DNA from: a virus
Reading direction: 5' to 3' (one strand)
UHGV virus genome: UHGV-1976345
Length of the DNA: 12,099 bases
A program made the position numbers and the translations under genes. Within the stretch, counting starts at the first letter, position 1, and each line of letters opens with the position of its first letter. Of this stretch, positions 1-12,099 are shown piece by piece. The notes under the pieces are model-generated. The model saw nothing but the letters and a program-made list of their open reading frames with translations. It was not told the DNA's origin and did not search any database.

Positions 1-33
1 ACACTCTTTCCCTACACGACGCTCTTCCGATCT
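1..33. other. Illumina TruSeq adapter (technical sequence, not biological)
   Basis: Bases 1-33 read ACACTCTTTCCCTACACGACGCTCTTCCGATCT, identical to the 3' 33 nt of the TruSeq universal adapter / Read 1 primer site; genomic sequence starts at 34. Confidence 0.95.
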
Positions 34-236
34 CGCAGCTGCTCTGTCATGATTTCCACGTCTGCCAGCTCTGCCGCGAGGTCACTTTCGCTGCCCTGTC
101 CGTTCAGGTTGCGGGCAGCACTGGCCGCCAGTTCAGCGGCCTCTTCTGTCAGTTTCAGGGCCTGTGCATCCGGACCGAAACGCTGCAGGGCCAGACGGTA
201 GAGGGCGGTGCGGGTGAGTTCGGTGTTCCGTGTCAT
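12..236 (-). CDS. Hypothetical small phage protein, 3'-partial; possible all-alpha MazG-like NTP pyrophosphohydrolase fold
   Basis: ORF track 12..236 (-). ATG at 236-234 with GAGGG Shine-Dalgarno about 9 nt upstream. The last 7 residues (RDRKSVV) and the stop are encoded by adapter bases 12-33, so the true C-terminus lies off the contig. KLTEEAAELAAS and DLAAELADVEIM resemble the EExxE and ExxD helices of MazG/HisE-type domains (recollection, not searched). Confidence 0.45.
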   Translation of the reverse strand: MTRNTELTRTALYRLALQRFGPDAQALKLTEEAAELAASAARNLNGQGSESDLAAELADVEIMTEQLRDRKSVV

Positions 237-245
237 GCCGCGCCC

Positions 246-518
246 TCAGTGTTTCCGGTCGACGGTGATGTTCAGGCCGCCTTCTGCAGTGGTTTCCACC
301 CGGTACGGCACCTCGTGCTCTGCCGTGTGGGTGAGTGTGTTCATCAGTACCTGCAGGGCAGCCGCCTTTCCGTTGGTTGCCACAATGGCCTGAGCGGCCA
401 TGCTGATTAACGCCGTCAGGACGTGCTTCACATCGGTGAGGTCGCGGCATTCACACTCGTTGACATAGTGTTCAACAAGGGTTCGGGTGCGCTGTCGTGC
501 TTCCTGTGGGGTAATCAT
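246..518 (-). CDS. Hypothetical protein, 90 aa, phage early-region type
   Basis: ORF track 246..518 (-). ATG at 518-516 with GGGAGGA Shine-Dalgarno 7 nt upstream. Start overlaps the stop of the upstream zinc-ribbon ORF (ATGA) and the stop lies 9 nt from the next start, i.e. operon-style packing. No family recognised. Confidence 0.55.
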   Translation of the reverse strand: MITPQEARQRTRTLVEHYVNECECRDLTDVKHVLTALISMAAQAIVATNGKAAALQVLMNTLTHTAEHEVPYRVETTAEGGLNITVDRKH

Positions 519-709
519 TGCGCGTCCTCCCTGTCAGGGCGGGAGAATTCCATGACGGGCACGTCCGCCGAAAAATGCTGGCTGCAGTACGGACAGACCA
601 GGGTGACGCGTACCGCAGGGATGTGGTATTTACCGGACATCACGGCGATGGCGCTGTGAAAACGCAGGGCTGTTATATCCCTCTCGCACTGAATACATTT
701 AAATATCAT
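515..709 (-). CDS. Small zinc-ribbon protein, 64 aa, two CxxC motifs
   Basis: ORF track 515..709 (-). ATG at 709-707 preceded by AGAGGAG. Protein has C5-x2-C8 and C39-x2-C42 (CIQC ... CPYC). Family not recognised; Com-like and Ogr-like were considered but the spacing differs. Confidence 0.55.
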   Translation of the reverse strand: MIFKCIQCERDITALRFHSAIAVMSGKYHIPAVRVTLVCPYCSQHFSADVPVMEFSRPDREDAQ

Positions 710-806
710 AATTTAATTCTCCTCTGTTTCCGGCGTGCAGAAGCCCACGGCGCTGACGCCGGAATAAAAAAGAAAATGTTTTTATTAAATAATTAACGTG
801 GTGTGT

Positions 807-1235
807 TTACTGCACATCCTGCTCAAAAGGAATTATTGAAAAATCCTCAATGTCGCTTTTAATGGAAATACCGGGAATATTTTTCACGGCCTCTTTTTCA
901 TTCAGGATAGCGTCTTTATTTATTTCCTCTTTTACACGAATAAAGCGCTCAAGCCCCAGACGTCTCAGTAATTCAATAACATTATCCGCCCCACGGATAC
1001 TGACTGATGGCGGACGGTTTCGCCACTGCACCTCGCCGGTGGTGAGGTTAGCGAACTTCACCTTCCCGTTGCCGGTCAGTTCATCACGGTGCGCCTCACA
1101 CCATGTCTGGATACCGGACTGCAGTTCGGCCATGCGTTTTTTCAGGCTCTCGGTGACCCGGCGAAACATAAAACGGCGATCGAGGATGAGGTGGTTACCT
1201 TTGACAAATCGACAGGGCAGGCCAGACTGGCGCAT
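807..1235 (-). CDS. gam: Mu Gam-family host-nuclease inhibitor, probably 5'-truncated or with uncertain start
   Basis: C-terminal ~120 aa of minus ORF 807..1703 (WCEAHRDELTGNGKVKFANLTTGEVQWRNRPPSVSIRGADNVIELLRRLGLERFIRVKEEINKDAIL...GISIKSDIEDFSIIPFEQ) match the Mu Gam C-terminal region closely from memory. Stop TAA at 809-807. The nearest in-frame ATG is 1235-1233 with no convincing Shine-Dalgarno. Upstream of about 1250 the ORF is only the antisense shadow of the sheath gene. Confidence 0.7.
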   Translation of the reverse strand: MRQSGLPCRFVKGNHLILDRRFMFRRVTESLKKRMAELQSGIQTWCEAHRDELTGNGKVKFANLTTGEVQWRNRPPSVSIRGADNVIELLRRLGLERFIRVKEEINKDAILNEKEAVKNIPGISIKSDIEDFSIIPFEQDVQ

Positions 1236-1250
1236 CCGGTTGTCGCTAAT

Positions 1251-2327
1251 GTGGTGGTGAAAAACAGTGAAGGCAGCACCACCCACACGGCGAACACGGA
1301 CTACCGTGTTGATGCGCAGGCGGGTGTGCTCACGAACCTGGGCAAGGCTATTGAGGCCGGTGGCAGCGTGAAGGTGAGCTATGAGTACGCGGACCCGTCG
1401 AAGGTGACTGCGGCGGACATCATCGGCGGGGTGAACAGCGCCGGAAACCGAACCGGCATGAAGCTGCTTAACGACAGCTTCAACCTGTACGGCTATTTCG
1501 CCAAAATTCTGATTGCGCCGGTGTTCTGCACCCAGAAGAGTGTCGCAGTTGAGCTTATCGCCATGGCAGAGAAGCTGGGCGCGGTAACCTACATTGATGC
1601 GCCTGTCGGTACCACCTTTGCACAGGCTCTGGCAGGTCGTGGCCCGGAAGGCACCATCAACTTCAATACCAGCTCCGACCGCGTCCGTCTGTGCTATCCG
1701 CATGTGAAGGTATATGACCCGGTGACAAACACAGAGCGTCTGGAGCCGCTCAGCCAGCGTGCAGCAGGTCTGCGTGCCAGAGTCGATCTGGACAAGGGCT
1801 ACTGGTGGTCATCCTCCAATCAGGAGATTCTGGGGATCACCGGCGTGGAGCGCCAGCTGTCCGCGATGATTGATGACCCGCAGAGTGAGGTAAACCTGCT
1901 TAACGAACAGGGGATCACCACGGTATTCAGCAGTTACGGCAGCGGCCTTCGTCTGTGGGGTAACCGGACGGCAGCATGGCCAACGGTCACCCATATGCGT
2001 AACTTTGAGAACGTTCGCCGCACCGGTGATGTGATCAACGAGTCCATTCGTTATTTCAGCCAGCAGTACATCGACATGCCGATTACTCAGGCGCTGATTG
2101 ATGCACTGACGGAGTCGGTCAACGCCTACGGTCGCAAAATGACTGGTGATGGTGCGGTACTGGGCTTCCGTTGCTGGTTTGATCCGGCCCGCAATCCGGA
2201 GACGGAGCTGGCCGCCGGGCACCTGTTGCTGAGCTACAAATATACGCCACCACCGCCGCTGGAGCGACTGACGTTTGAGACTGAGATCACCTCGGAATAC
2301 CTGTTAACCCTGAAAGGGGGCAACTGA
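1251..2327 (+). CDS. Contractile tail sheath protein (P2 FI / Mu L family), 5'-truncated, start undefined
   Basis: Plus ORF 1089..2327. Sheath-like motifs run from about 1290 to the stop at 2325-2327 (VKVSYEYADPSKVTAADIIGG, LRLWGNRTAAW, CWFDPARNPETELAAGHLLLSYKYTPPPPLERLTFE). The conserved N-terminal ~100 aa of sheath proteins is absent, there is no in-frame ATG or RBS near the homology start, and 1089-1250 is antisense to gam. Confidence 0.85.
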   Translation: MVVKNSEGSTTHTANTDYRVDAQAGVLTNLGKAIEAGGSVKVSYEYADPSKVTAADIIGGVNSAGNRTGMKLLNDSFNLYGYFAKILIAPVFCTQKSVAVELIAMAEKLGAVTYIDAPVGTTFAQALAGRGPEGTINFNTSSDRVRLCYPHVKVYDPVTNTERLEPLSQRAAGLRARVDLDKGYWWSSSNQEILGITGVERQLSAMIDDPQSEVNLLNEQGITTVFSSYGSGLRLWGNRTAAWPTVTHMRNFENVRRTGDVINESIRYFSQQYIDMPITQALIDALTESVNAYGRKMTGDGAVLGFRCWFDPARNPETELAAGHLLLSYKYTPPPPLERLTFETEITSEYLLTLKGGN

Positions 2328-3229: not shown

Positions 3230-3565
3230 ATGTCACAGACCCCATCCGATACTTTTAAATTGTCTTATCCCTTCACCACTGCTGCAGGCACCAGAATTGA
3301 GCAGGTTGAACTGAAACGCCTGACGGTAAAAGACCTGAAGCAGGTGCGCAAAATCAGCAAAAACCCGGCAGACTGGGACGAACCGCTGATTGCCCGCAGT
3401 ACTGGTCTTCTCCCGGAAGATCTCGACAATATGGATCTGGCTGATTACCTGCAGTTACAGAAACGATTTCAGCTCATCACGGGGATGGGTGAGAGCAACC
3501 AGGGCGCTGACGCAGGCGCAGGGGCTGCTGGCGAGATGGTTCCGGTTTCAGCCGGGGGAGATTGA
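3230..3565 (+). CDS. Tail assembly chaperone, gpE-like (P2 E / lambda G analogue)
   Basis: ORF 3230..3565, 111 aa. AGGAG 7 nt upstream of the ATG. Lies immediately upstream of the tape measure gene and has a Gly/Ala-rich C-terminus, as in E/G-type chaperones; an overlapping out-of-frame extension ORF is present. Confidence 0.8.
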   Translation: MSQTPSDTFKLSYPFTTAAGTRIEQVELKRLTVKDLKQVRKISKNPADWDEPLIARSTGLLPEDLDNMDLADYLQLQKRFQLITGMGESNQGADAGAGAAGEMVPVSAGGD

Positions 3566-3647
3566 TGCCCTCGATACTGACGATCTGGAGATGTGGCTGG
3601 AGCAGGCTGAAGAGCAAATAAAAAGCGAGTACGGCGACAAATCATAG
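3230..3647 (+). CDS. Putative frameshift product E+E' (tail assembly chaperone, long form)
   Basis: ORF 3390..3647 (codon starts at positions divisible by 3) overlaps the 3' end of E (codon starts at positions with remainder 2). Its last 30 codons encode an acidic, protein-like peptide (GEIDALDTDDLEMWLEQAEEQIKSEYGDKS) ending 75 nt before the tape measure start. A GGGGG run at 3554-3558, two codons before the E stop, is the candidate slip site. Offset is +1 or -2, not -1. Confidence 0.5.
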
Positions 3648-3652
3648 TACAG

Positions 3653-3673
3653 ACAGCCGCCAGTAGCGGCTGT
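3653..3673 (+). promoter_or_regulatory. Stem-loop between E' stop and tape measure start
   Basis: ACAGCCGC (3653-3660) / GCGGCTGT (3666-3673), 8-bp stem with 5-nt loop, followed by a moderately T-rich tract (TCTGCGTTATCCCC). The tape measure RBS GGAGG follows at about 3709. Confidence 0.3.
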
Positions 3674-3722
3674 TCTGCGTTATCCCCTCACGTCTTTTCA
3701 CCTTCCCCGGAGGTTAACCACT

Positions 3723-6674
3723 ATGTCGGGACAGTTTTCAGTCGGCGTTGTTATCGGCGGGATGATTGGCAGCACATTCCGTTCTGCAATGAGCGGTACC
3801 CGCCGTGCGCTTGATTCCCTGAGCGATACCTCACGCCGCCTGCAGGAACGTCAGAACGCTTTAACCCGTGCAACAGAACGTTATGGTCAACTGGGTTCTT
3901 CCCGGATGCAGCATCTCAACAGCGAGCTGCTGCGGGTAAGCCGCACCATGGAGCAAATTGAGCGCCAGCAGCGCCGTCTGTCAGCGGCATCCGCTACCAG
4001 TGATGCGCTGAAAGCTAACCGCATGGCGCTGTATGGTCAGGGGATTGAAGCGTATGGCATGGCACAGACTGTTTATCATACGGTTTCCCCTGCCGTTCAG
4101 CAGTCCATGTCTTTTCAGGACAAAATGATTGATATGTCGATCACCGCAAAATATGACAATAAAACGCGGGATGGACTTGCCGGACAGATAAAAGGCTGGG
4201 CGCTTAAATACAATCAGTATCAGGATGAGCTGCAGGAGGCGGTGGGTTCACTCATCAGCGACAATATTGATAATGTGTCAGATATCGGTTTTCTGATGCC
4301 GGATATTGCCCGCGCGGCAACGGCAACACGCACGTCTGCTCAGGACTGGGCAAAAGTGGCCGCAGTCTGGCAAAACTCCCTGAAAGGTGCGGCCAGAGAT
4401 TTTGGTGCCGTTCAGAATATTATGGCTTATGCCGGTGACCAGGGGTCATTTGAAATCCCGGATCAGGTCAAGTGGATGCAGTCCCTGGCCCCAATGATGG
4501 CGGGTATTGCCAGTGGAAAAGAGGCTGTTGCTGAAATCGGGGCCAGTCTCCAGATAGCAAAAATCGGTGCAGGTTCCACCGACGAAGCAGCCAATAATTT
4601 TAAAAACTTTCTTACCAAAATTTTTGCCCGCGATACTCAGAAACAGTTTGCTGATCTGGGTATTGATTTGCAGGGATCTATTGCGAGTTATAAAGCTGCG
4701 GGGATCTCTCCGATTGAAGGGATGTTGAGTGTTATAGAACGTTACCTCAATGCCAAAAGCCCCGAAGCGCTGGCCGGCTTCAAATCAGCCATGAAAATAA
4801 AGAATGATACGGCAAGAGATGAGGCACTTCAGGCTCTGGCGAAAAACTTTGGTCTGGGCGATATGTTCGCGGATATGCAGGTCATGGCATTTATCCGCCC
4901 GATGCTGGCCAACATGGACAGATATCGAGAGATCCGTGCCGGTGCTCTCAGGGCTGCGGATAACGATTTGCTTGCCAGTGCTTATGATCAGCGGCTGAAA
5001 TCTCCCCTTGAAGCCACTAAAACACTTATGGTCAGCAGTCGCGATCTGGCAATTACGCTGGGCGATCAATTAGCTCCATCTTTTATTTCTTTGACTCAGG
5101 AACTGCTTCCACTCATTCAGGGGGCAAAACACTGGGTAGCGACTCACCCGCAATTTGTCAGTGGGGCTTTTAAGCTCATCAGTGCGCTCCTTGCGATTAA
5201 GATAGCGACTGTTGGTCTCAAACTGGGGCTGAATCTCCTTATTTCCCCCTTTGTAAGTGTCTGGAAAAATGCTGTTTTACTTCGGGCCAACTGGCTTCGT
5301 CTGTCGCTCGCACTGGGGCAAGGCGGTAAGCTCCGCTGGCTGGTGACCGGATTTAGCGCCGTCGCCAGAGGAGCCAGAACACTGAGTGGCGTGCTCTCCG
5401 GGGGGCTGGTTCGCGGAATTATGCTCGCCGGACGTGCTGTTCTCTGGATTGGAGGTGCGCTGATGATGAATCCCATCGGTCTCGTTATCACCGCTGTCGC
5501 GGCAGCAGCTTACCTTATCTACCGCAACTGGGGGGCAGTCAGTGGCTGGTTTAAACAGCGCTGGGCAGACATTCAGGAAGCCTTTAACGGCGGCATTGTG
5601 GGAACTGGTAAGTTGCTGATTAACTGGTCGCCGGCAGGCCTGCTCTATAAAGCCTTTGCGGCTGCGCTGAAATATTTCGGCGTTGCTCTGCCGGCAAAGT
5701 TCACCGACTTCGGTGGCCATCTTATCGACGGTCTGATTAACGGTATCAAAAACAAATGGGGGTCGCTCAAATCCAGTGTAACCGGAATGGGTGACAGCAT
5801 CAGTAGCTGGTTTAAACAGTGCTGGGCTGACATTCAGGAAGCCTTTAACGGCGGTATCGCGGGAACTGGTAAGCTGCTGATTAACTGGTCGCCGGCAGGT
5901 CTGCTCTATAAAGCCTTTGCAGCTGCGCTGAAATATCTTGGTGTTGATCTGCCGGCAAAGTTTACCGACTTCGGTGGCCATCTTGTCGATGGTCTGATTA
6001 ACGGTATCAAAAACAAATGGGAGTCGCTCAAATCCAGTGTAACCGGAATGGGTGACAGCATCAGTGGCTGGTTCAGCGAAAAGCTGGGCATTCATTCGCC
6101 GAGCCGCGTGTTTATGGGCTTTGGTGACAATATCGCGCAGGGGGCCGCCATTGGCCTGCAGCGGACCACTCCGCTTGCAGCTCTGGCCGGGCAGCGAATG
6201 GCCAGTGAACTGCTCCCCAGAATGCCCGTGAGCATCCAGGGGCCAGAAATACGGGATAACACTTCAGGTGTTCGCTTCAGTATGCCGTTGCCCGATATCA
6301 ATGGGTTTATGTCGTCTGCTAAAAATGCGATCGGAGCCGTAATCAATAGTTTGTCTTCCATGCCCGCTATTCCGCTCTCCACCCGGGCATCGATTTTACC
6401 AGGGCAACGTCTGGCAAATGAGATGACACCGGATGTTCCCCGTATCCCCTCGCCTGAAATCCTGGCTGCCGGATATTCAGGCCGTGGTGCAGCTGCAACC
6501 GGCGGTGGAACGTCTGGTGGTATCCAGGTCAGCTTTAATCCTCAGTTTTTCCTCAATGGCAGGGAAACCACAGCGCCTGCAGGACTGACTGGTGCCCTGA
6601 ATATGAGTCTGCATGAGCTGGAAAAAATGCTGGAGCGTCTGCTGGCTCAGAAACAACGTAAGGAGTACCGCTGA
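3723..6674 (+). CDS. Tail tape measure protein (P2 T family)
   Basis: ORF 3723..6674, 983 aa. Position after the E/E' pair, Ala/Gln-rich helical N-terminal region, long hydrophobic Gly/Ala/Leu-rich central segment (about residues 480-600) and an internal tandem repeat are all typical of tape measure proteins. GGAGG 9 nt upstream of the ATG. Confidence 0.9.
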   Translation: MSGQFSVGVVIGGMIGSTFRSAMSGTRRALDSLSDTSRRLQERQNALTRATERYGQLGSSRMQHLNSELLRVSRTMEQIERQQRRLSAASATSDALKANRMALYGQGIEAYGMAQTVYHTVSPAVQQSMSFQDKMIDMSITAKYDNKTRDGLAGQIKGWALKYNQYQDELQEAVGSLISDNIDNVSDIGFLMPDIARAATATRTSAQDWAKVAAVWQNSLKGAARDFGAVQNIMAYAGDQGSFEIPDQVKWMQSLAPMMAGIASGKEAVAEIGASLQIAKIGAGSTDEAANNFKNFLTKIFARDTQKQFADLGIDLQGSIASYKAAGISPIEGMLSVIERYLNAKSPEALAGFKSAMKIKNDTARDEALQALAKNFGLGDMFADMQVMAFIRPMLANMDRYREIRAGALRAADNDLLASAYDQRLKSPLEATKTLMVSSRDLAITLGDQLAPSFISLTQELLPLIQGAKHWVATHPQFVSGAFKLISALLAIKIATVGLKLGLNLLISPFVSVWKNAVLLRANWLRLSLALGQGGKLRWLVTGFSAVARGARTLSGVLSGGLVRGIMLAGRAVLWIGGALMMNPIGLVITAVAAAAYLIYRNWGAVSGWFKQRWADIQEAFNGGIVGTGKLLINWSPAGLLYKAFAAALKYFGVALPAKFTDFGGHLIDGLINGIKNKWGSLKSSVTGMGDSISSWFKQCWADIQEAFNGGIAGTGKLLINWSPAGLLYKAFAAALKYLGVDLPAKFTDFGGHLVDGLINGIKNKWESLKSSVTGMGDSISGWFSEKLGIHSPSRVFMGFGDNIAQGAAIGLQRTTPLAALAGQRMASELLPRMPVSIQGPEIRDNTSGVRFSMPLPDINGFMSSAKNAIGAVINSLSSMPAIPLSTRASILPGQRLANEMTPDVPRIPSPEILAAGYSGRGAAATGGGTSGGIQVSFNPQFFLNGRETTAPAGLTGALNMSLHELEKMLERLLAQKQRKEYR
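5547..6068 (+). repeat. In-frame tandem duplication (2 x 261 bp) inside the tape measure gene
   Basis: Copy 1 at 5547-5807 and copy 2 at 5808-6068 both begin TGGTTTAAACAG; about 17 mismatches over 261 bp (roughly 93% identity by hand count). Encodes two 87-aa units, WFKQ(R/C)WADIQEAFNGGI...GMGDSIS(S/G). A third unit starts at 6069 (TGGTTCAGCG) then diverges. Confidence 0.9.
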
Positions 6675-7558
6675 TGTTTGCCGTACTGGGTGATATTGAG
6701 TTTGAGCTGATTACCTACTGGGACGGCTTCGAGGCCACGTTCGGCGTCGATTATGCGGAGCATGCCCGCATCGGGGGTAAGCCTGGCCTGCAGTTCGTCG
6801 GCGACAGGCTGGACGAAATCCAGATAACTCTGGTTTTCCATCAGCATTATTGTGTACCCGATGTGGAGCTGGCGAGACTGCGAACAGCCATGAAAGCCCA
6901 TCAGGCACTGGCGCTGGTCTTCGGCAACGGTGACTATCGCGGCTGGTTCGTGATTACCGATGTGACTGCAACCAGCGAGCAGACTGACAGTACCGGCAAC
7001 GTGCTGGCTGTCAGTGCCACCGTGTCTCTCCGGGAATACACCGGTGACCCGAAAAATCCTCTGCAACCACCGGCAATACGCACGAAGCTCCCGGGTGTCG
7101 GGGCGGTCTCCGGTGCCATACCTTCACCTTCAGGGGTGGCGCAGTTCATCCGCAACGGCGTCAACTATGCGAAACAGGCGCAGTCTGTACTCCAGACCAC
7201 TATCAGCGCCGTTCGGGTGACACAGAAAATGAAGGATAACCCCGTTGTCGCACTGACCCGTGTGCCGGGGCTGATGAGCGGACTGGGTAATATCTCCGGG
7301 GCTCTGGGGAAAAGTGTTCCGGCGTTTAACGCACTCTCTGAATCCATGCCCGATGCCATCAGTCTGGCCAGAACAGCCAGCGAAGCAGCCACGTATGTAC
7401 AGCAGGCACAGTCTGCGCTGAGTGGTGTGGACAAAAGAAATATTGCAGGTGCTCTGGATACCGTTTCCGGGCAGCTTAACGCCGCCGGCACAGCATTCAA
7501 CCGCATGTCTCCGGGATTAAGTGCAATGGCCGCCAGAATACTGACGAGGAGTGTGTGA
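6674..7558 (+). CDS. gpU-family tail protein with about 150-aa C-terminal extension
   Basis: ORF 6674..7558, 294 aa. ATG overlaps the tape measure stop (TGATG) with AAGGAG upstream. The N-terminal ~130 aa fit the P2 gpU pattern (LGxIEFE...IGGKPGLQFVGDRLDEIQITLVF...GWFVITDV). The remainder is Ala/Ser/Gly/Gln-rich and unassigned. Confidence 0.75.
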   Translation: MFAVLGDIEFELITYWDGFEATFGVDYAEHARIGGKPGLQFVGDRLDEIQITLVFHQHYCVPDVELARLRTAMKAHQALALVFGNGDYRGWFVITDVTATSEQTDSTGNVLAVSATVSLREYTGDPKNPLQPPAIRTKLPGVGAVSGAIPSPSGVAQFIRNGVNYAKQAQSVLQTTISAVRVTQKMKDNPVVALTRVPGLMSGLGNISGALGKSVPAFNALSESMPDAISLARTASEAATYVQQAQSALSGVDKRNIAGALDTVSGQLNAAGTAFNRMSPGLSAMAARILTRSV

Positions 7559-7770
7559 TGTTTCTTGAACATGTTACCCGTGACGGAGAGCGCTGGGATT
7601 CGCTGGCATGGCAGTACTACGGTGACCCGCTGGGCTATCCCCGGATTATTGCCGCCAATCCGCACGTGGCCATCACGCCGGTGCTGCCCTCCGGGCTGTT
7701 GTTACTGATCCCGGTGATTGAGGCTGAAGAAGCCCGTACAGAAGAGGATATTGCCCCATGGCTGAGATAA
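7558..7770 (+). CDS. Tail protein X (LysM-like, P2 gpX family)
   Basis: ORF track 7555..7770 (GTG at 7555; ATG at 7558 is the more likely start and overlaps the U stop). MFLEHVTRDGERWDSLAWQYYGDPLGYPRIIAANPHV fits the gpX LysM-like pattern. GAGGAG upstream. Confidence 0.85.
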   Translation: MFLEHVTRDGERWDSLAWQYYGDPLGYPRIIAANPHVAITPVLPSGLLLLIPVIEAEEARTEEDIAPWLR

Positions 7771-8912
7771 ACAGCACTGCGCAAGTCACATCAGCGTTAA
7801 CCGGCGTCAGCGATGTGCTGACACCGGTGTTCACTTTGTGGTATCTGCAGAAAAACATCACCTCTGATATCGCGCCTTATGTCACCCGTGTGACCTGGAG
7901 CGATAACATCAAAAATGAGTCCGATACCATTGAGGTGGAGCTGGACGACACCGATGGCCGCTGGCTGGATAAATGGTATCCGGGCAAGGGTGACACGCTG
8001 ACGCTGAAAATGGGCTATCAGGGCGAGAAGCTGCTGTCCTGCGGTACGTTCTCTATAGACGAGATCGAAGTGAGTTCGCCCGCTTCCGTTGTTTCTATCC
8101 GTGGGGTGGCCACCTCGGTTAACAGTGCCCTGCGGACTAAAACCAGTCGTGGTTTTGAGAACACCACGCTGGCAGCTGTTGCGGGGCGGATTGCCAGAAA
8201 GCACCGACTGAAACTGGTGGGCAGCATTGAGTCCATCAGAATCGACCGGGTGACCCAGTATGCTGAAACCGACGTGGGTTTTCTGCGCCGGCTGGCCAGC
8301 GAGTATGGTTATGCAGTGAAAGTGGTCAGTGACCAGCTGATTTTTTCTCATCTGGCCACACTGCGCAGTCAGGAGCCGGTCAGGCAGTTAAAACCGCAGG
8401 ATGTGGCCCGCTTTTCCCTGCGTGACACCATCAACCGGGTCTATAAATCTGCAAAGGTAAAACACCAGAAAAGCAGCAGTAAAAAACTGATCGTCTACGA
8501 AGCTGATGGTGGTACCCGTGAAAGCGACAAAAAGCTCAAAGGTGGTAAGGTTACCAGCGCTGACTCACTTAAAGTTAACAGCCGCGTCAGCGACCCGGAC
8601 AGTGCCCGGATTAAAGCGGATTCAGCACTGGCCAGACATAACGAATACCAGCAGAACGGCTCCCTGACGCTGACGGGAACACCTCAACTGACAGCAGGCA
8701 ACAAAATTGAACTGGTGGGTTTTGGGCAGTTATCCGGGCCATGGCTCATAACCACTGCCCGCCATGCGTTTGACCGTAACAGCGGCTACACCACAGAGCT
8801 GGAAGTGGCACGGGGGCCAGTCACAAGAGGGAAAAAACAAAAAACTCAGAAACTCACGGTTTATCACCCGGATGGCAGTACATCGACGGTGATTAAGGAG
8901 AAGAAAAAATGA
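7758..8912 (+). CDS. Baseplate hub / late control protein D (P2 gpD family)
   Basis: ORF 7758..8912, 384 aa, similar in size to P2 gpD. Start overlaps the X 3' end by 13 nt with GAGGA 11 nt upstream. Has gpD-like motifs (FSIDEIEV, YAETDVGFLRRLASEYGYAVKV) and sits after X and before V. Confidence 0.9.
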   Translation: MAEINSTAQVTSALTGVSDVLTPVFTLWYLQKNITSDIAPYVTRVTWSDNIKNESDTIEVELDDTDGRWLDKWYPGKGDTLTLKMGYQGEKLLSCGTFSIDEIEVSSPASVVSIRGVATSVNSALRTKTSRGFENTTLAAVAGRIARKHRLKLVGSIESIRIDRVTQYAETDVGFLRRLASEYGYAVKVVSDQLIFSHLATLRSQEPVRQLKPQDVARFSLRDTINRVYKSAKVKHQKSSSKKLIVYEADGGTRESDKKLKGGKVTSADSLKVNSRVSDPDSARIKADSALARHNEYQQNGSLTLTGTPQLTAGNKIELVGFGQLSGPWLITTARHAFDRNSGYTTELEVARGPVTRGKKQKTQKLTVYHPDGSTSTVIKEKKK

Positions 8913-9505
8913 CTGGTGTCACTCGTCAGGTCGGTACGGTCAGTGCCGTTGATGCCGACAGGGTTCAGGCCCGCGTTCGTCTGCCTGAATGCGATAACCT
9001 GCGCACAAACTGGCTTAACGTGCTGCAGCGCAATACCCAGGATAACAAAGATTACTGGCTCCCTGACGTGGGGGAGCAGGTTGAGGTGCTGCTCGATGCC
9101 AACGGCGAGGATGGTGTTATTCTGGGCGCGGTGTATTCAGACGTCGATAAACCACCGTTCAGTGACAAAAATATCCGGGGAACCCGGTTTGCTGATGGTG
9201 CAGAGTACAGCTACAACCGGAAGACGCACACTCTGACCATCCGGGGCGGCATTGAGCATATTGTCATTGAGTGTGGTGCTGATGTGGTATTGAAAACACA
9301 GAAAGCCACGATTGACGCACCGGAAACCGAACTTACCGGAGATCTGCGTGTCAGGGGTAAGCTGATTTACGAAGGAGGCATGGCGGGTTCTGGTGGTGAA
9401 GGTGTTACCGCGACCATCCATGGCAATATCGAGATTAAAGGGAATGCCCATGCCACGGGCAGTATGTTGTCTGATGGCGAAAACTCCAGCCACCACTCCC
9501 ACTGA
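8909..9505 (+). CDS. Baseplate central spike protein (P2 gpV family)
   Basis: ORF 8909..9505, 198 aa. ATGA overlap with D and AAGGAGA upstream. WLPDVGEQVEVLL and a C-terminal Gly-rich beta-helix-like region ending in the His-rich SSHHSH match the gpV pattern. Confidence 0.9.
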   Translation: MTGVTRQVGTVSAVDADRVQARVRLPECDNLRTNWLNVLQRNTQDNKDYWLPDVGEQVEVLLDANGEDGVILGAVYSDVDKPPFSDKNIRGTRFADGAEYSYNRKTHTLTIRGGIEHIVIECGADVVLKTQKATIDAPETELTGDLRVRGKLIYEGGMAGSGGEGVTATIHGNIEIKGNAHATGSMLSDGENSSHHSH

Positions 9506-9541
9506 GCTTTTTAAACGCCTTTAATATCAGCGTTCCCGCAC

Positions 9542-9559
9542 GGGGGCAATACTGCCCCC
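9542..9559 (+). promoter_or_regulatory. GC-rich stem-loop directly abutting the gpW start codon
   Basis: GGGGGCA (9542-9548) / TGCCCCC (9553-9559), 7-bp stem with ATAC loop; the W ATG begins at 9560. No T-tract follows, so it is not called a terminator. Confidence 0.35.
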
Positions 9560-9907
9560 ATGAAAACAACCTCAGTATTCTGGCAACCGACCCTGCAGGC
9601 TCCCGGCGAAATTGTCCGGGGGCTGGATGATATCCGGCAGGCGATTCAAATTATCCTGCGGACTCCCCGCGGCAGCGACCCGCATCGCCCGGAGTTCGGC
9701 AGCAATCTGCATCTTTATATCGACTGGCCTGTAGACCGGGCCATTCCGCATGTGGTGCGCGAATCCGTCGATGCCATCCGGCGCTGGGAGCCCCGCTGCC
9801 AGCTTATGTCAGTTAAACCCGCCGTCGACGGCGAACATCTTACGCTCCGGGTGAGCTGGAAAGGCTCAGACGGACAGACCCGGACTCAGGAGCTGCTATG
9901 GCGCTGA
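9560..9907 (+). CDS. Baseplate wedge protein (P2 gpW / T4 gp25-like)
   Basis: ORF 9560..9907, 115 aa. IRQAIQIILRTPRGSDPHRPEFGSNL and RRWEPRCQL match the GPW/gp25 pattern (ILxTPxGS ... WEPR). Confidence 0.85.
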   Translation: MKTTSVFWQPTLQAPGEIVRGLDDIRQAIQIILRTPRGSDPHRPEFGSNLHLYIDWPVDRAIPHVVRESVDAIRRWEPRCQLMSVKPAVDGEHLTLRVSWKGSDGQTRTQELLWR

Positions 9908-11001
9908 CAGAACCCGATTTTATTGAACGCGATGCCGACAAAATCACGGCAGAAATGATTGCGAAGTATGAAGCGGATACCGGCAAAACGCTGTACCCGG
10001 CACAGGCAGAACGTCTGCTGATTGATCTGTGGGCCTATCGCGAAATGCTGGTCAGGGTTGCGGTACAGGAGGCAGCAAAGCAGAATCTGGTCGCCTTTGC
10101 CCGTGAGCCGATGATTGATTACCTCGGTGAACTGGTCGGTGTATACCGTCTTGCCGCGCAGCCTGCCACTACCACGCTCCAGTTCTCCGTAGATGAGGCA
10201 CTGGCCATTGATGTGCTGATCCCGGCAGGCACCCGCGTCAGCGCTTCCGACAGCGTTATTTTTGCCACCGATACAGATGTGGTACTGAAGGCCGGATTGC
10301 TGCTGGTCAATGTCACGTCCACCTGTACCGAACCCGGTACCGCTGGTAACGGCTGGCAACCTGCGCAGGTCAGTCAGTTACTCGATGAGATTGATAACGT
10401 CGACCTGCTGGTGAGCAATCTGACGGCCAGTTCCGGCGGTTCAGAACAGGAAGACGATGACAGGCTCCGGGAGCGTATCAGGCTGGCCCCGGAGTCATTC
10501 ACCAATGCCGGAAGCCGTGGCGCATACCGCTTTCATGCCATGCAGGCCCATCCCAACATTGTCGATGTTGCTGTGCTTTCCCCGGTTCCCGGGACCGTAG
10601 ATCTGTATCCGCTGCTCAGTACCGGTCTGCCGGACGGCGGTGTTCTCACGCTGGTAGAGAGTTTCTGCTCTGATGAGAAAGTCAGGCCACTCACTGATAC
10701 AGTGCGGGCTAAAACACCAGTGAAGGTGGATTACACCATTGAAGCCAAGATTACGATCTATCGTGATCAGGATGCCAGGTCTGTAAAAGATGCCGCTAAC
10801 AGCGCCATACAGAACTGGGTGGCATCACGTGCCGCCACGCTGGGGCGCGATATTGTCCCCAGCCAGATTATCAGTGCATTGTCCGTTTCCGGGGTGTACC
10901 AGGTTGAACTGGTGACACCGGCACTGCGGGTGGTGGCAGAAAACGAATGGGCAAACTGTACGGCAATCACTCTTAACATGACTGGAGTGTCTGATGACTG
11001 A
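9898..11001 (+). CDS. Baseplate protein J (P2 gpJ / T4 gp6-like)
   Basis: ORF 9898..11001, 367 aa. Overlaps the W stop by 10 nt with AGGAG upstream. SFTNAGSRGAYRFHAMQAHPNIVDVAV and LGRDIVPSQIISALSVSGVYQVEL match conserved gpJ regions. Confidence 0.9.
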   Translation: MALTEPDFIERDADKITAEMIAKYEADTGKTLYPAQAERLLIDLWAYREMLVRVAVQEAAKQNLVAFAREPMIDYLGELVGVYRLAAQPATTTLQFSVDEALAIDVLIPAGTRVSASDSVIFATDTDVVLKAGLLLVNVTSTCTEPGTAGNGWQPAQVSQLLDEIDNVDLLVSNLTASSGGSEQEDDDRLRERIRLAPESFTNAGSRGAYRFHAMQAHPNIVDVAVLSPVPGTVDLYPLLSTGLPDGGVLTLVESFCSDEKVRPLTDTVRAKTPVKVDYTIEAKITIYRDQDARSVKDAANSAIQNWVASRAATLGRDIVPSQIISALSVSGVYQVELVTPALRVVAENEWANCTAITLNMTGVSDD

Positions 11002-11572
11002 GCCATTACAACTCCCGCCACCGCTTGAGGGTGATATCAGTCTCAGGACGCTGGGAAGACTGGCAGGACGGCTGGATAACATCGACCTGAGCGTACTGAT
11101 GGTCTTTCTCGTCGATATCGTCGACAGTTCCGCGCTGCCATGGCTGGGCGAGCAGTTCTCACTGTCTGGCGATGGCTGGGAGCTGGCGGAATCGGACGAT
11201 GTTCGCCGCATGCTTATAAAAGCAGCCATCGAACTGCACCGGTATAAAGGGACGCCGTGGTCAATCCGGGAAGTTATCCGCCGTTTTGGCTTTGGTGAAG
11301 TGGATCTGATTGAAGGCACAGGTCGTCTCAGTTACGACGGCAATCGCAGCTATAACGGACTGTTTGTTCATGGAGATGCAGCCGCCTGGGCAGTTTATCG
11401 CGTTATTCTGAAACAGCCCATTACTAACGATCAGGCCGCGATGCTGCGTCAGACGCTGGCTGCATTTGCACCGGCCCGCTGCCATCTGGCCAGCCTGGAG
11501 TATCAGTCTGTGGCCATTCGCTATAACAATACCGCCATCCATGATGGCAGTTATAACCACGGGAGCAGTTGA
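10994..11572 (+). CDS. Baseplate / tail protein I (P2 gpI family)
   Basis: ORF 10994..11572, 192 aa. Overlaps the J stop by 8 nt with GGAG upstream. ALPWLGEQFSL ... HRYKGTPWSIREVIRRFG fits the gpI pattern (LPWLA ... H.KGT). Confidence 0.85.
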   Translation: MTEPLQLPPPLEGDISLRTLGRLAGRLDNIDLSVLMVFLVDIVDSSALPWLGEQFSLSGDGWELAESDDVRRMLIKAAIELHRYKGTPWSIREVIRRFGFGEVDLIEGTGRLSYDGNRSYNGLFVHGDAAAWAVYRVILKQPITNDQAAMLRQTLAAFAPARCHLASLEYQSVAIRYNNTAIHDGSYNHGSS

Positions 11573-11574
11573 TT

Positions 11575-12099
11575 ATGGGAAACCTGAATGAAACAGAAAA
11601 GTGGGAAGAAAATATCTATCAACTGGAGACATCAGATCCGGTTCTGGGTGGTGCAGACGGGATATCAAATCGAGCCCCCCGGCAACTGGCAAACAGGACG
11701 AAATGGCTGAAGAAAAAAACGGAGGAAGCCGCACAGTCACTGGCTGAACACGTACGTTCCCGTAACCACCCGGACGCGACACTGACAGCTAAGGGGTTCA
11801 CCCAACTGAGCAGTGCCACCAACAGCACCTCTGAAACGCTGGCCGCCACACCAAAGGCCGTCAAGGCTGCATATGACCTGGCTGCCGGCAAGGCCCCCGT
11901 CAGCCATACTCACCCGTGGAGTCAGATAACGGGAGTGCCTGCTGCCTCGCTGACGGCAAAAGGCACCGTACAACTGAGCAGCGCCACGGACAGTCAATCA
12001 GAAACTGAGGCTGCCACGCCGAAGGCGGTCAAGGCTGTATACGACCTTGCAGCCGGCAAGGCGCCCGTCAGCCACACTCACCCGTGGAGTCAGATAACG
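11575..12099 (+). CDS. Tail fiber protein (P2 gpH-like), 5' portion only; runs off the window end
   Basis: ATG at 11575, 2 nt after the I stop, with GGGAG upstream; frame is open to 12099 and not in the ORF track because no stop is reached. Contains HPDATLTAKGFTQLSSATNSTSETLAATPKAVKAAYDLA, the conserved fiber collar repeat seen in P2 H and lambda-type side tail fibers. Confidence 0.85.
   Translation, partial: MGNLNETEKWEENIYQLETSDPVLGGADGISNRAPRQLANRTKWLKKKTEEAAQSLAEHVRSRNHPDATLTAKGFTQLSSATNSTSETLAATPKAVKAAYDLAAGKAPVSHTHPWSQITGVPAASLTAKGTVQLSSATDSQSETEAATPKAVKAVYDLAAGKAPVSHTHPWSQIT
11782..12099 (+). repeat. Tandem tail-fiber repeat (2 units of about 150 nt, 168-nt period)
   Basis: Unit 1 at 11782-11931 and unit 2 at 11950-12099, both ending GCCGGCAAGGC(C/G)CCCGTCAGCCA(T/C)ACTCACCCGTGGAGTCAGATAACG. 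The 5' halves differ at many synonymous sites; the 3' ~45 nt are nearly identical. The window ends exactly at the end of unit 2. Confidence 0.85.

What the first reader, a model, noticed from the sequence alone, without database searches (positions are those of the whole stretch)
11575..12099. Tail fiber gene is cut at a repeat; the receptor-binding end is missing
Only the N-terminal anchor and two collar repeats of the fiber are present, and the contig stops exactly at the end of the second repeat unit, a typical assembly break at repeated sequence. The host-range-determining C-terminal domain and any fiber chaperone or invertible segment would lie beyond. The two units are diverged at synonymous sites in their 5' halves but nearly identical in their 3' ~45 nt, suggesting partial homogenisation or a recombination hot spot.
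Basis: partly seen in the sequence, partly recalled or inferred. Interest (0 to 1): 0.4.

Follow-up and report, generated by a model that had tools for sequence, protein, structure and literature searches.

The report
Tail fiber gene truncated at contig end
The window ends inside the repeated shaft region of the tail fiber gene of a common, already sequenced E. coli Mu-like prophage, so the missing receptor-binding end is a short-read assembly artefact rather than new biology.

Summary
An ORF opens at 11575 and is still open at 12099 (175 aa). It contains two 168-nt (56-aa) units, 11764-11931 and 11932-12099, which are two Pfam PF03406 'phage tail fibre repeat' copies. Their last 45 nt match at 43/45.

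The window is the tail module of a widespread BcepMu-like transposable prophage of E. coli (99.9% identical to strain E-1246, present in about 12% of complete genomes). In eight complete chromosomes the same gene continues with 3-7 units, then a variable receptor-binding C-terminus. Downstream lie tail-fibre assembly genes, inverted alternative cassettes and a Gin-like invertase.

In the closest relatives the next unit is 166-168/168 identical to unit 2. The window's last 61 nt are multi-copy in relatives and follow a private SNP. Bases 1-33 are an Illumina adapter. The same gene is annotated 'tail fiber protein, partial' in thousands of draft assemblies.

Comparison across strains supports recombination between units. 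'Collar repeats' is a misnomer, because the Pfam Collar domain lies in the missing C-terminus.

This is ordinary and already known. The window also contains a Gam-to-sheath junction found in no other sequence searched.

The parts
10994..11572 (+). P2 gpI-type baseplate wedge gene, immediately upstream of the fibre gene. Probable docking partner for the fibre N-terminus.
   Evidence: Pfam PF09684 Tail_P2_I, E = 1.2e-24. Gene order D-V-W-J-I-H as in BcepMu. The docking role is inferred from the Mu gp48/gp49 structure (PMC11915804). There is no BLASTP similarity to Mu gp48 itself.
11575..12099 (+). Tail fibre gene, 5' fragment (175 codons, no stop). It is the first third or less of the constant part of the fibre.
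   Evidence: Translation. 99.9% nt identity to the E. coli E-1246 prophage, where the ORF is 539 aa.
11575..11763 (+). N-terminal module (aa 1-63), BcepMu gp52-like. Presumed baseplate attachment.
   Evidence: tblastn: aa 1-60 are 50% identical to BcepMu gp52 (E = 3e-15) and 55% to Burkholderia phage vB_E430. gp52 is the gpH-type fibre gene downstream of the gpI homologue. No relative with a solved structure was found by sequence.
11764..11931 (+). Repeat unit 1 (56 aa): a PF03406 core plus the linker 'AGKAPVSHTHPWSQIT'.
   Evidence: 63% identical to Mu S residues 111-150. About 65% identical to P2 gpH.
11932..12099 (+). Repeat unit 2 (56 aa). The window ends at its last base.
   Evidence: In relatives it is followed by 1-5 further units.
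12038..12038 (+). Private T (Ala to Val, giving 'KAVYDL'), found in no relative. It is the last base that makes the contig end unique.
   Evidence: It is one of only two mismatches to L016 and one of 25 to E-1246. The variant 16-mer is absent from 63 loci.
12039..12099 (+). Terminal 61-mer that is multi-copy in related genomes. This is the signature of a de Bruijn-graph contig end.
   Evidence: present 2-4 times in 14 of the 36 related loci that contain it.
1..33 (+). Illumina TruSeq universal adapter / read-1 primer sequence. It marks the window as a raw short-read contig.
   Evidence: The 33 nt do not match the prophage, whereas 34-1156 do. The exact 33-mer appears in 2,062 papers, i.e. in primer tables. 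Its identity as the adapter is from own knowledge.

Best explanation
The window is a short-read contig from a BcepMu-like (Mu-type transposable, P2-type tail) prophage of E. coli. It terminates inside the tandem 168-nt repeat array that encodes the shaft of the tail fibre.

Shown:
- The fibre gene starts at 11575 with a 63-aa BcepMu gp52-like N-terminal module, followed by PF03406 repeat units.
- In intact relatives there are 3-7 units, then a constant segment ending '...LNYLGLGE'. This motif aligns with the Mu S segment 'LGLQET', which lies at about the residue where Mu's annotated G-segment boundary falls.
- Beyond that lie a variable receptor-binding C-terminus (Collar-type or gp53-like), tail-fibre assembly chaperones, inverted alternative C-terminus/chaperone cassettes and a Gin-family serine invertase.

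Inferred:
- The assembler could not pass the near-identical units 2, 3 and onwards. It stopped one repeated k-mer (61 nt) after the last unique base.
- The N-terminus docks on the gpI-type wedge protein.
- The repeat units build a trimeric shaft whose length depends on unit number.
- The invertase switches host range, as in Mu, P1 and e14.
- Unequal crossing-over and gene conversion between units change copy number and homogenise the unit 3' ends.
For: Identity of the element:
- 98.9% to phage PhiKM (taxonomy line: Bcepmuvirus) and 99.9% to E. coli E-1246. 676 of 5426 complete genomes hit.
- Full prophage context with DDE transposase, Gam and Mor.
- Insertion sites differ between strains.

Gene continuation:
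- Searches show 3-7 units and five different C-termini.
- Pfam Collar, Gp53-like_C, Caudo_TAP and Resolvase+HTH_7.
- Invertase 77% identical to Mu Gin.
- 229-nt inverted repeats, 94% complementary, flank the cassettes in E41-1.
- E41-1 and 4/1-1, both inserted next to aroA, carry different C-termini on an identical constant part.
- Inversion within a Mu prophage of the EPEC strain E. coli E2348/69 was confirmed experimentally in PMC4272514.

Break at the repeat:
- Exact repeats of 167-234 nt in the nearest relatives.
- 61-mer/62-mer test.
- Adapter at 1-33.
- 'Partial' fibre proteins of 130-307 aa dominate the database hits. One 290-aa form is on at least 1000 contigs.
- 12 of 31 whole contigs end inside the gene, about 7 of them inside the array.

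Recombination between units:
- Mosaic 3' alleles, a 336-nt higher-order repeat in L006, and Fisher p = 0.005.
Against: - The reads and the assembly graph are not available, so a break from low coverage cannot be excluded. Several public contigs with 2-3x coverage also end just before unit 1.
- The contig end lies 5-11 nt upstream of the branch points expected from L016 or E-1246. The exact stop therefore depends on an unknown k and on the private SNP, which could itself be a read error.
- The contig has other irregularities (an adapter, and a Gam-to-sheath junction seen nowhere else), so it may be partly chimeric.
- The unit number in the source strain is unknown.
Confidence: 0.87

Rival explanations
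The coincidence with the repeat has no causal meaning.
For: The contig starts with an untrimmed adapter and carries an odd internal junction, which suggests a thin or messy assembly. Public low-coverage contigs (2-3x) break at many places around this gene, including before unit 1.
Against: The end falls exactly one multi-copy 61-mer after the last unique base. In the nearest relatives it is followed by a 166-168/168 identical unit. The same gene is cut in thousands of isolate assemblies with normal coverage.
Confidence: 0.08
2. The gene is truly truncated or rearranged in the source genome, for example by an IS insertion or a deletion as part of a decaying prophage. The contig stops at that element.
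For: The same contig carries a junction that, if real, deletes about 19.5 kb between gam and the sheath gene and truncates both. The prophage may therefore be defective. PGAP marks the fibre gene as a pseudogene in some complete genomes.
Against: In the complete genomes where PGAP calls a pseudogene, the ORF is actually intact. None of the 8 complete genomes or 63 loci shows foreign DNA at this position. The sequence matches relatives up to the last base.
Confidence: 0.04
3. The window is not a contig end at all. It is an arbitrary cut made when the window was extracted from a longer sequence.
For: The origin of the window is not disclosed.
Against: The length, 12,099, is not a round number. 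The other end is an adapter, i.e. a genuine contig terminus. The cut coincides with the end of the multi-copy 61-mer.
Confidence: 0.03

Closest known systems
Prophage of E. coli E-1246 (NZ_CP025573, fibre ORF at 1429081-1430700) and Escherichia phage PhiKM (PQ738613; taxonomy line: Bcepmuvirus)
   Same: 99.9% and 98.9% nt identity over window 10900-12099. Same gene order from sheath to fibre, and identical N-terminal module and unit 1.
   Different: E-1246 has the whole gene (539 aa, 5 units, gp53-like C-terminus) plus chaperones, an alternative cassette and the invertase. The window has 175 codons, a private A-to-V change, and a Gam-to-sheath junction absent from E-1246. The PhiKM fibre ORF is itself cut (319 aa): it leaves the relatives' sequence within the variable C-terminal part of the gene.
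Phage Mu tail fibre gp49 (S), G segment and Gin
   Same: Mu S has one PF03406 unit, 63% identical. The 'LGLGE/LGLQE' segment aligns with Mu S at about the residue of Mu's annotated G-segment boundary. The invertase is 77% identical to Gin. The Sc/Sv architecture with inverted S'/U' cassettes is shared.
   Different: Mu has a single unit against 3-7 here. The N-termini are unrelated by sequence, and the gpI-type wedge protein shows no BLASTP similarity to Mu gp48. Some relatives have three C-terminal cassettes rather than two.
Phage P2 gpH (Peduovirus tail fibre)
   Same: Residues 56-166 are 65-70% identical to gpH of P2 and P2-like phages. The baseplate genes are P2-type: gpD, V, W, J, I.
   Different: The N-terminal 60 aa are not the P2 type but the BcepMu gp52 type. 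In the fibres read through here most linkers are 17 aa and carry an HxH motif ('SHTHPW').
Burkholderia phage BcepMu gp52
   Same: The N-terminal 60 aa are 50% identical (E = 3e-15). The position after the gpI homologue is the same, and the phage type is the same: transposable, with a P2-like tail.
   Different: Only aa 1-60 of the query match BcepMu. Whether gp52 itself contains PF03406 units was not tested. No invertase is annotated in the BcepMu stretch fetched; the gene after gp52 is an acyltransferase.

Membership tests
PF03406 (Phage_fiber_2) repeat tail fibres: P2 gpH / Mu S / P1 S / lambda Stf type | Repeat units score above the Pfam gathering threshold | tested here: met
   132.5 bits against a cutoff of 22, two stretches. 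Five stretches in the full-length E-1246 protein.
PF03406 (Phage_fiber_2) repeat tail fibres: P2 gpH / Mu S / P1 S / lambda Stf type | Gene lies directly after the baseplate wedge genes (J, I) of a contractile tail module | tested here: met
   Pfam on ORFs 7758-11572: GPD, Phage_base_V, GPW_gp25, Baseplate_J, Tail_P2_I, then the fibre.
PF03406 (Phage_fiber_2) repeat tail fibres: P2 gpH / Mu S / P1 S / lambda Stf type | C-terminal receptor-binding domain, followed by a Caudo_TAP chaperone gene | not testable with these tools
   Missing from the window. Present in all 8 complete relatives.
PF03406 (Phage_fiber_2) repeat tail fibres: P2 gpH / Mu S / P1 S / lambda Stf type | Homotrimeric fibre attached by its N-terminus to the wedge | not tested
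   Inferred only from the Mu cryo-EM structure (PMC11915804). The N-terminal 68 aa gave only chance PDB hits.
Gin/Pin/Cin/Hin invertible tail-fibre segments | Adjacent Gin-family serine recombinase | not testable with these tools
   Not in the window. In relatives it is a 190-aa Resolvase+HTH_7 protein, 77% identical to Mu Gin.
Gin/Pin/Cin/Hin invertible tail-fibre segments | Inverted repeats flank alternative C-terminus/chaperone cassettes, and both orientations occur | not testable with these tools
   Not in the window. In E41-1 the arms are 229 nt and 94% complementary. E41-1 and 4/1-1, at the same aroA site, carry different fused C-termini. No long inverted repeat was found in the E-1246 configuration.
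BcepMu-like transposable phages (Bcepmuvirus) | Mu-type early region (DDE transposase, Gam, Mor) combined with a P2-type tail module | tested here: inconclusive
   The window holds only a 5'-truncated gam and the tail module. The full set is present in E-1246. Variable insertion sites in relatives fit transposition.
Repeat-induced contig break in short-read assembly | Contig derives from short reads | tested here: met
   Illumina adapter at 1-33.
Repeat-induced contig break in short-read assembly | The terminal k-mer is multi-copy in the source genome and the graph branches there | tested here: inconclusive
   The 61-mer is multi-copy in 14 of 36 relatives, and the next unit is 166-168/168 identical in the nearest ones. 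The source genome and its graph are not available.

The most novel reading that the evidence does not exclude
The 56-aa unit array may be a fast-evolving length module. Prophages that are otherwise 98-99.9% identical carry 3-7 units in complete genomes, with mosaic unit 3' ends and a 336-nt higher-order duplication. Unequal recombination might therefore tune fibre reach to the depth of the host's O-antigen or capsule, acting alongside the invertase-driven switch of the tip. Separately, the Gam-to-sheath junction at 1155/1156 could be a genuine 19.5-kb deletion that marks a decaying prophage.
Probability: 0.25. Interest if true: 0.3.

Novelty: already known. Interest (0 to 1): 0.1.

Why it matters
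The main value is practical. This fibre gene breaks systematically in short-read assemblies, both in its tandem repeat array and at the inverted repeats of its invertible segment. As a result, host-range predictions, prophage typing and pangenome gene counts based on draft E. coli genomes will mis-handle it. Databases already hold hundreds of 'partial' versions, and PGAP flags intact copies as pseudogenes. The window adds no new biology. The gene, its repeats, the chaperones and the invertase are all present in complete public genomes, and their types were described for Mu, P2 and BcepMu. Variation in unit copy number is a modest lead for anyone studying fibre length and receptor access.

Tried and rejected
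- Exact-product look-up of the chimeric sheath ORF (1089-2327), to find the source contig: not on record.
- Exact search for the 45-nt Gam-to-sheath junction in IMG/VR, JGI metagenomes and GTDB genomes: zero hits in each. No complete E. coli genome spans it either. The source contig was therefore not identified.
- PDB sequence search with the N-terminal 68 aa: only chance hits to a designed 'Scone' protein. The anchor role remains an inference.
- BLASTP of the gpI-type protein against Mu gp48: no similarity.
- NCBIfam gave no above-threshold family for the fibre or the chaperones.
- Tandem Repeats Finder missed the two-unit array in the window.
- The contig end as a Mu-type genome end: rejected, because in relatives the fibre gene is followed by more than 2 kb of phage genes.
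- The BMC Biol 2022 'ST131 tailocin' prophage (PMC9205054): checked, but I could not establish that it is this element.
- Structure prediction and the representative-protein search were not run. They would not change the verdict and are costly.

Full report
**What is at 11575-12099.** An ATG at 11575 follows the stop codon of the upstream gene by two bases. It opens a frame that is still open at the last base of the window, 175 codons later.
- Residues 1-63 are non-repetitive.
- Residues 64-119 and 120-175 are two 56-aa units encoded by 11764-11931 and 11932-12099.
- The repeat finder reports the pair at 168-nt spacing with 80% identity over 150 nt. The chance probability is about 1e-36.
- Pfam calls two PF03406 'Phage tail fibre repeat' copies (E = 3.7e-39).
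- Identity rises from 6/18 at the 5' end to 43/45 at the 3' end, and the last 24 nt are identical.
- Among codons with the same amino acid, 18/31 differ synonymously in the first 41 codons against 2/15 in the last 15 (Fisher p = 0.005).

One term needs correcting. These are Phage_fiber_2 units, whereas the Pfam 'Collar' domain (PF07484) sits in the C-terminal part that is missing here.

**What the window is.** The ORFs upstream are a P2-type contractile tail module: sheath, tube, chaperone, tape measure, gpU, gpX, gpD, gpV, gpW, gpJ and gpI.
- Window 10900-12099 is 98.9% identical to Escherichia phage PhiKM (taxonomy line: Bcepmuvirus) and 99.9% identical to a prophage of E. coli E-1246. 676 of 5426 complete E. 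coli genomes have a match.
- In E-1246 the element is a complete Mu-type transposable prophage with DDE transposase, Gam, Mor, lysis and head genes.
- It sits at different chromosomal sites in different strains: next to aroA, otsB, argG or pepN, or inside a lambdoid prophage.

**What lies beyond the window end in relatives.** In eight complete chromosomes the same gene is 415-664 aa long. Its layout is:
- the identical N-terminal module;
- 3, 5 or 7 repeat units;
- a constant stretch, 'GKQPADATLTALAGL...LNYLGLGE';
- one of several unrelated C-termini, either Collar-type or gp53-like.

Downstream come one or two Caudo_TAP tail-fibre assembly genes, promoterless alternative C-terminus cassettes (some inverted), and a 190-aa serine recombinase.
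- The recombinase is 77% identical to Mu Gin.
- In E41-1 the cassettes are bracketed by 229-nt inverted repeats.
- E41-1 and 4/1-1 both carry the prophage beside aroA, with the same constant part but different fused C-termini. Both orientations therefore exist in nature.
- The 'LGLGE' segment aligns with Mu S at about the residue where Mu's G-segment boundary is annotated.
- Inversion in a Mu prophage of the EPEC strain E. coli E2348/69 has been shown experimentally (PMC4272514).

**Why the sequence stops here.**
- In the nearest relatives the base after the window end starts a third unit that is 166-168/168 identical to unit 2. These relatives are L016 (2 mismatches in 6446 nt), E-1246 and L017. 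Their exact internal repeats of 167-234 nt exceed usual short-read k-mers and most read lengths.
- The window's only private base near the end is T at 12038. The 61 nt that follow it are present 2-4 times in 14 of the 36 related loci that carry them. The 62-mer including the T is in none of 63 loci. The contig therefore ends one multi-copy word after its last unique base. This is what a de Bruijn-graph assembler produces, although k is unknown.
- Window 1-33 is the Illumina TruSeq adapter / read-1 primer sequence (identity from own knowledge). The window is therefore a raw short-read contig.
- The phenomenon is general. Nearly all of the 120 best protein hits are 'tail fiber protein, partial [Escherichia coli]' of 130-307 aa. 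One 290-aa form is on at least 1000 contigs. Those fetched that are 130-228 aa long end inside the repeat array, and the two 290- and 297-aa forms fetched end at the start of the variable, invertible part.
- Of 31 whole public contigs that contain the gene start, 12 end within the gene, and about 7 of those end in the array.
- IMG/VR contig L009 stops 5 nt after the unit 1/unit 2 boundary, just before a position that varies between units.

I could not see the reads or the graph, so the cause is inferred. Low coverage remains a minor alternative.

**Recombination between units.** Aligning all units from 19 sequences gives 18 distinct unit sequences. The 3' third of unit 1 exists in three alleles:
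- the window type;
- a type identical to unit 2 from about position 97 onward (L004);
- a 'PASHTH' type (ST131) that is also found at the 3' end of internal units in other strains.

Copy number ranges from 2 to 7, and L006/NCTC9022 show a 336-nt two-unit higher-order repeat. Some two-unit genes in draft contigs may, however, be collapsed assemblies.

**How the fibre most likely works.**
- Shown: the gene is a mosaic. Its N-terminal 60 aa are related to BcepMu gp52 (50% identity, E = 3e-15). Its repeat units are related to P2 gpH (65-70% identity), Mu S (63%), P1/P7 Sc and lambda Stf.
- Inferred: the N-terminus docks on the gpI-type wedge protein. This is by analogy with Mu gp49 binding the docking loop of gp48 (PMC11915804).
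- Inferred: the units form the trimeric shaft, so unit number sets its length.
- Inferred: the HxH motif in each linker may bind metal, as in T4 fibres (own knowledge, untested).
- Inferred: the chaperone folds the tip, and the invertase alternates tips to change host range.

**Verdict.** Nothing here is new in kind. Interest is low.

**Other observations.**
- Window 34-1156 is the early region of the same prophage (hypothetical genes plus a 5'-truncated gam). It is joined, with only 2 nt of overlap, to codon ~86 of the sheath gene, skipping 19.5 kb.
- No complete E. coli genome and none of the three contig collections contains this junction.
- The tape measure gene carries a 261-nt tandem duplication.

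Noticed in passing
window 1-33: ACACTCTTTCCCTACACGACGCTCTTCCGATCT is the Illumina TruSeq universal adapter / read-1 primer. It is untrimmed adapter at the contig start and does not match the prophage, whereas 34-1156 do.
   Followed up: yes
window 1155-1156 (context 34-2994): The early region (hypothetical genes plus gam lacking its first ~60 codons, minus strand) is joined with 2 nt of overlap to the tail sheath gene at about codon 86. About 19.5 kb is skipped (transposase, repressor, lysis and head genes), in the same order and orientation as in the prophage. The junction is absent from 5426 complete E. coli genomes and from the IMG/VR, JGI metagenome and GTDB genome collections. It is either a private deletion (defective prophage) or a chimeric join. 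The 298-aa ORF at 807-1703 (-) is an artificial Gam/antisense-sheath fusion.
   Followed up: partly
window 5539-6073 (tape measure gene 3723-6674): A 261-nt (87-aa) tandem duplication, 244/261 identical. The PhiKM GenBank record has its sequencing gap in this gene. IMG/VR contig L007 has no such tandem repeat, so it has either one copy or a collapsed assembly. A copy-number difference would change the tape measure, and hence tail length, by 87 residues.
   Followed up: partly
window 12038: A private T (Ala to Val in unit 2, 'KAVYDL') not seen in any of 63 related loci. It could be a real SNP or a read error that gave the assembler a unique path into the repeat.
   Followed up: partly
window 3230-3647: A tail assembly chaperone gene (PF10109, gpE type) with an overlapping 85-aa ORF in another frame, followed by an unannotated gap before the tape measure gene. 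This is the usual E/E' programmed-frameshift arrangement. The slippery site was not located.
   Followed up: no
L003 (E. coli E41-1) 7676-11172 and L026 (strain 4/1-1) 3501-6997: Same prophage at the same aroA site, with the invertible region in different configurations (415-aa against 443-aa fibre). E41-1 has three Collar-type cassettes, one in direct and one in inverted orientation, so this is a multi-cassette, shufflon-like layout rather than a simple two-state G segment. PGAP annotates these intact ORFs as partial pseudogenes.
   Followed up: partly
L002/L019 (E. coli E-1246, NZ_CP025573 about 1395000-1438600): The Mu-like prophage is inserted inside the tail gene cluster of a lambdoid prophage. 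Tape measure and tail protein genes lie upstream, and minor tail protein L, a C40 peptidase and gpJ lie downstream.
   Followed up: no
L001 (PhiKM, PQ738613) 8676-9635: The deposited phage record's fibre ORF (319 aa) leaves the relatives' sequence within the variable C-terminal part of the gene. It runs into unrelated sequence annotated 'Fe2+ ABC transporter permease', followed by the early genes in reverse. The 'partial genome' appears to be broken or concatenated at the same troublesome locus.
   Followed up: partly
L024, L025 (complete genomes) and proteins P0073, P0076, P0088, P0091: Some fibres contain one unit with a short P2-type linker ('ARGKYTAQDATTTRKGIVQLSS') in place of the HxH linker. 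This indicates exchange of units with other prophage fibre genes.
   Followed up: no
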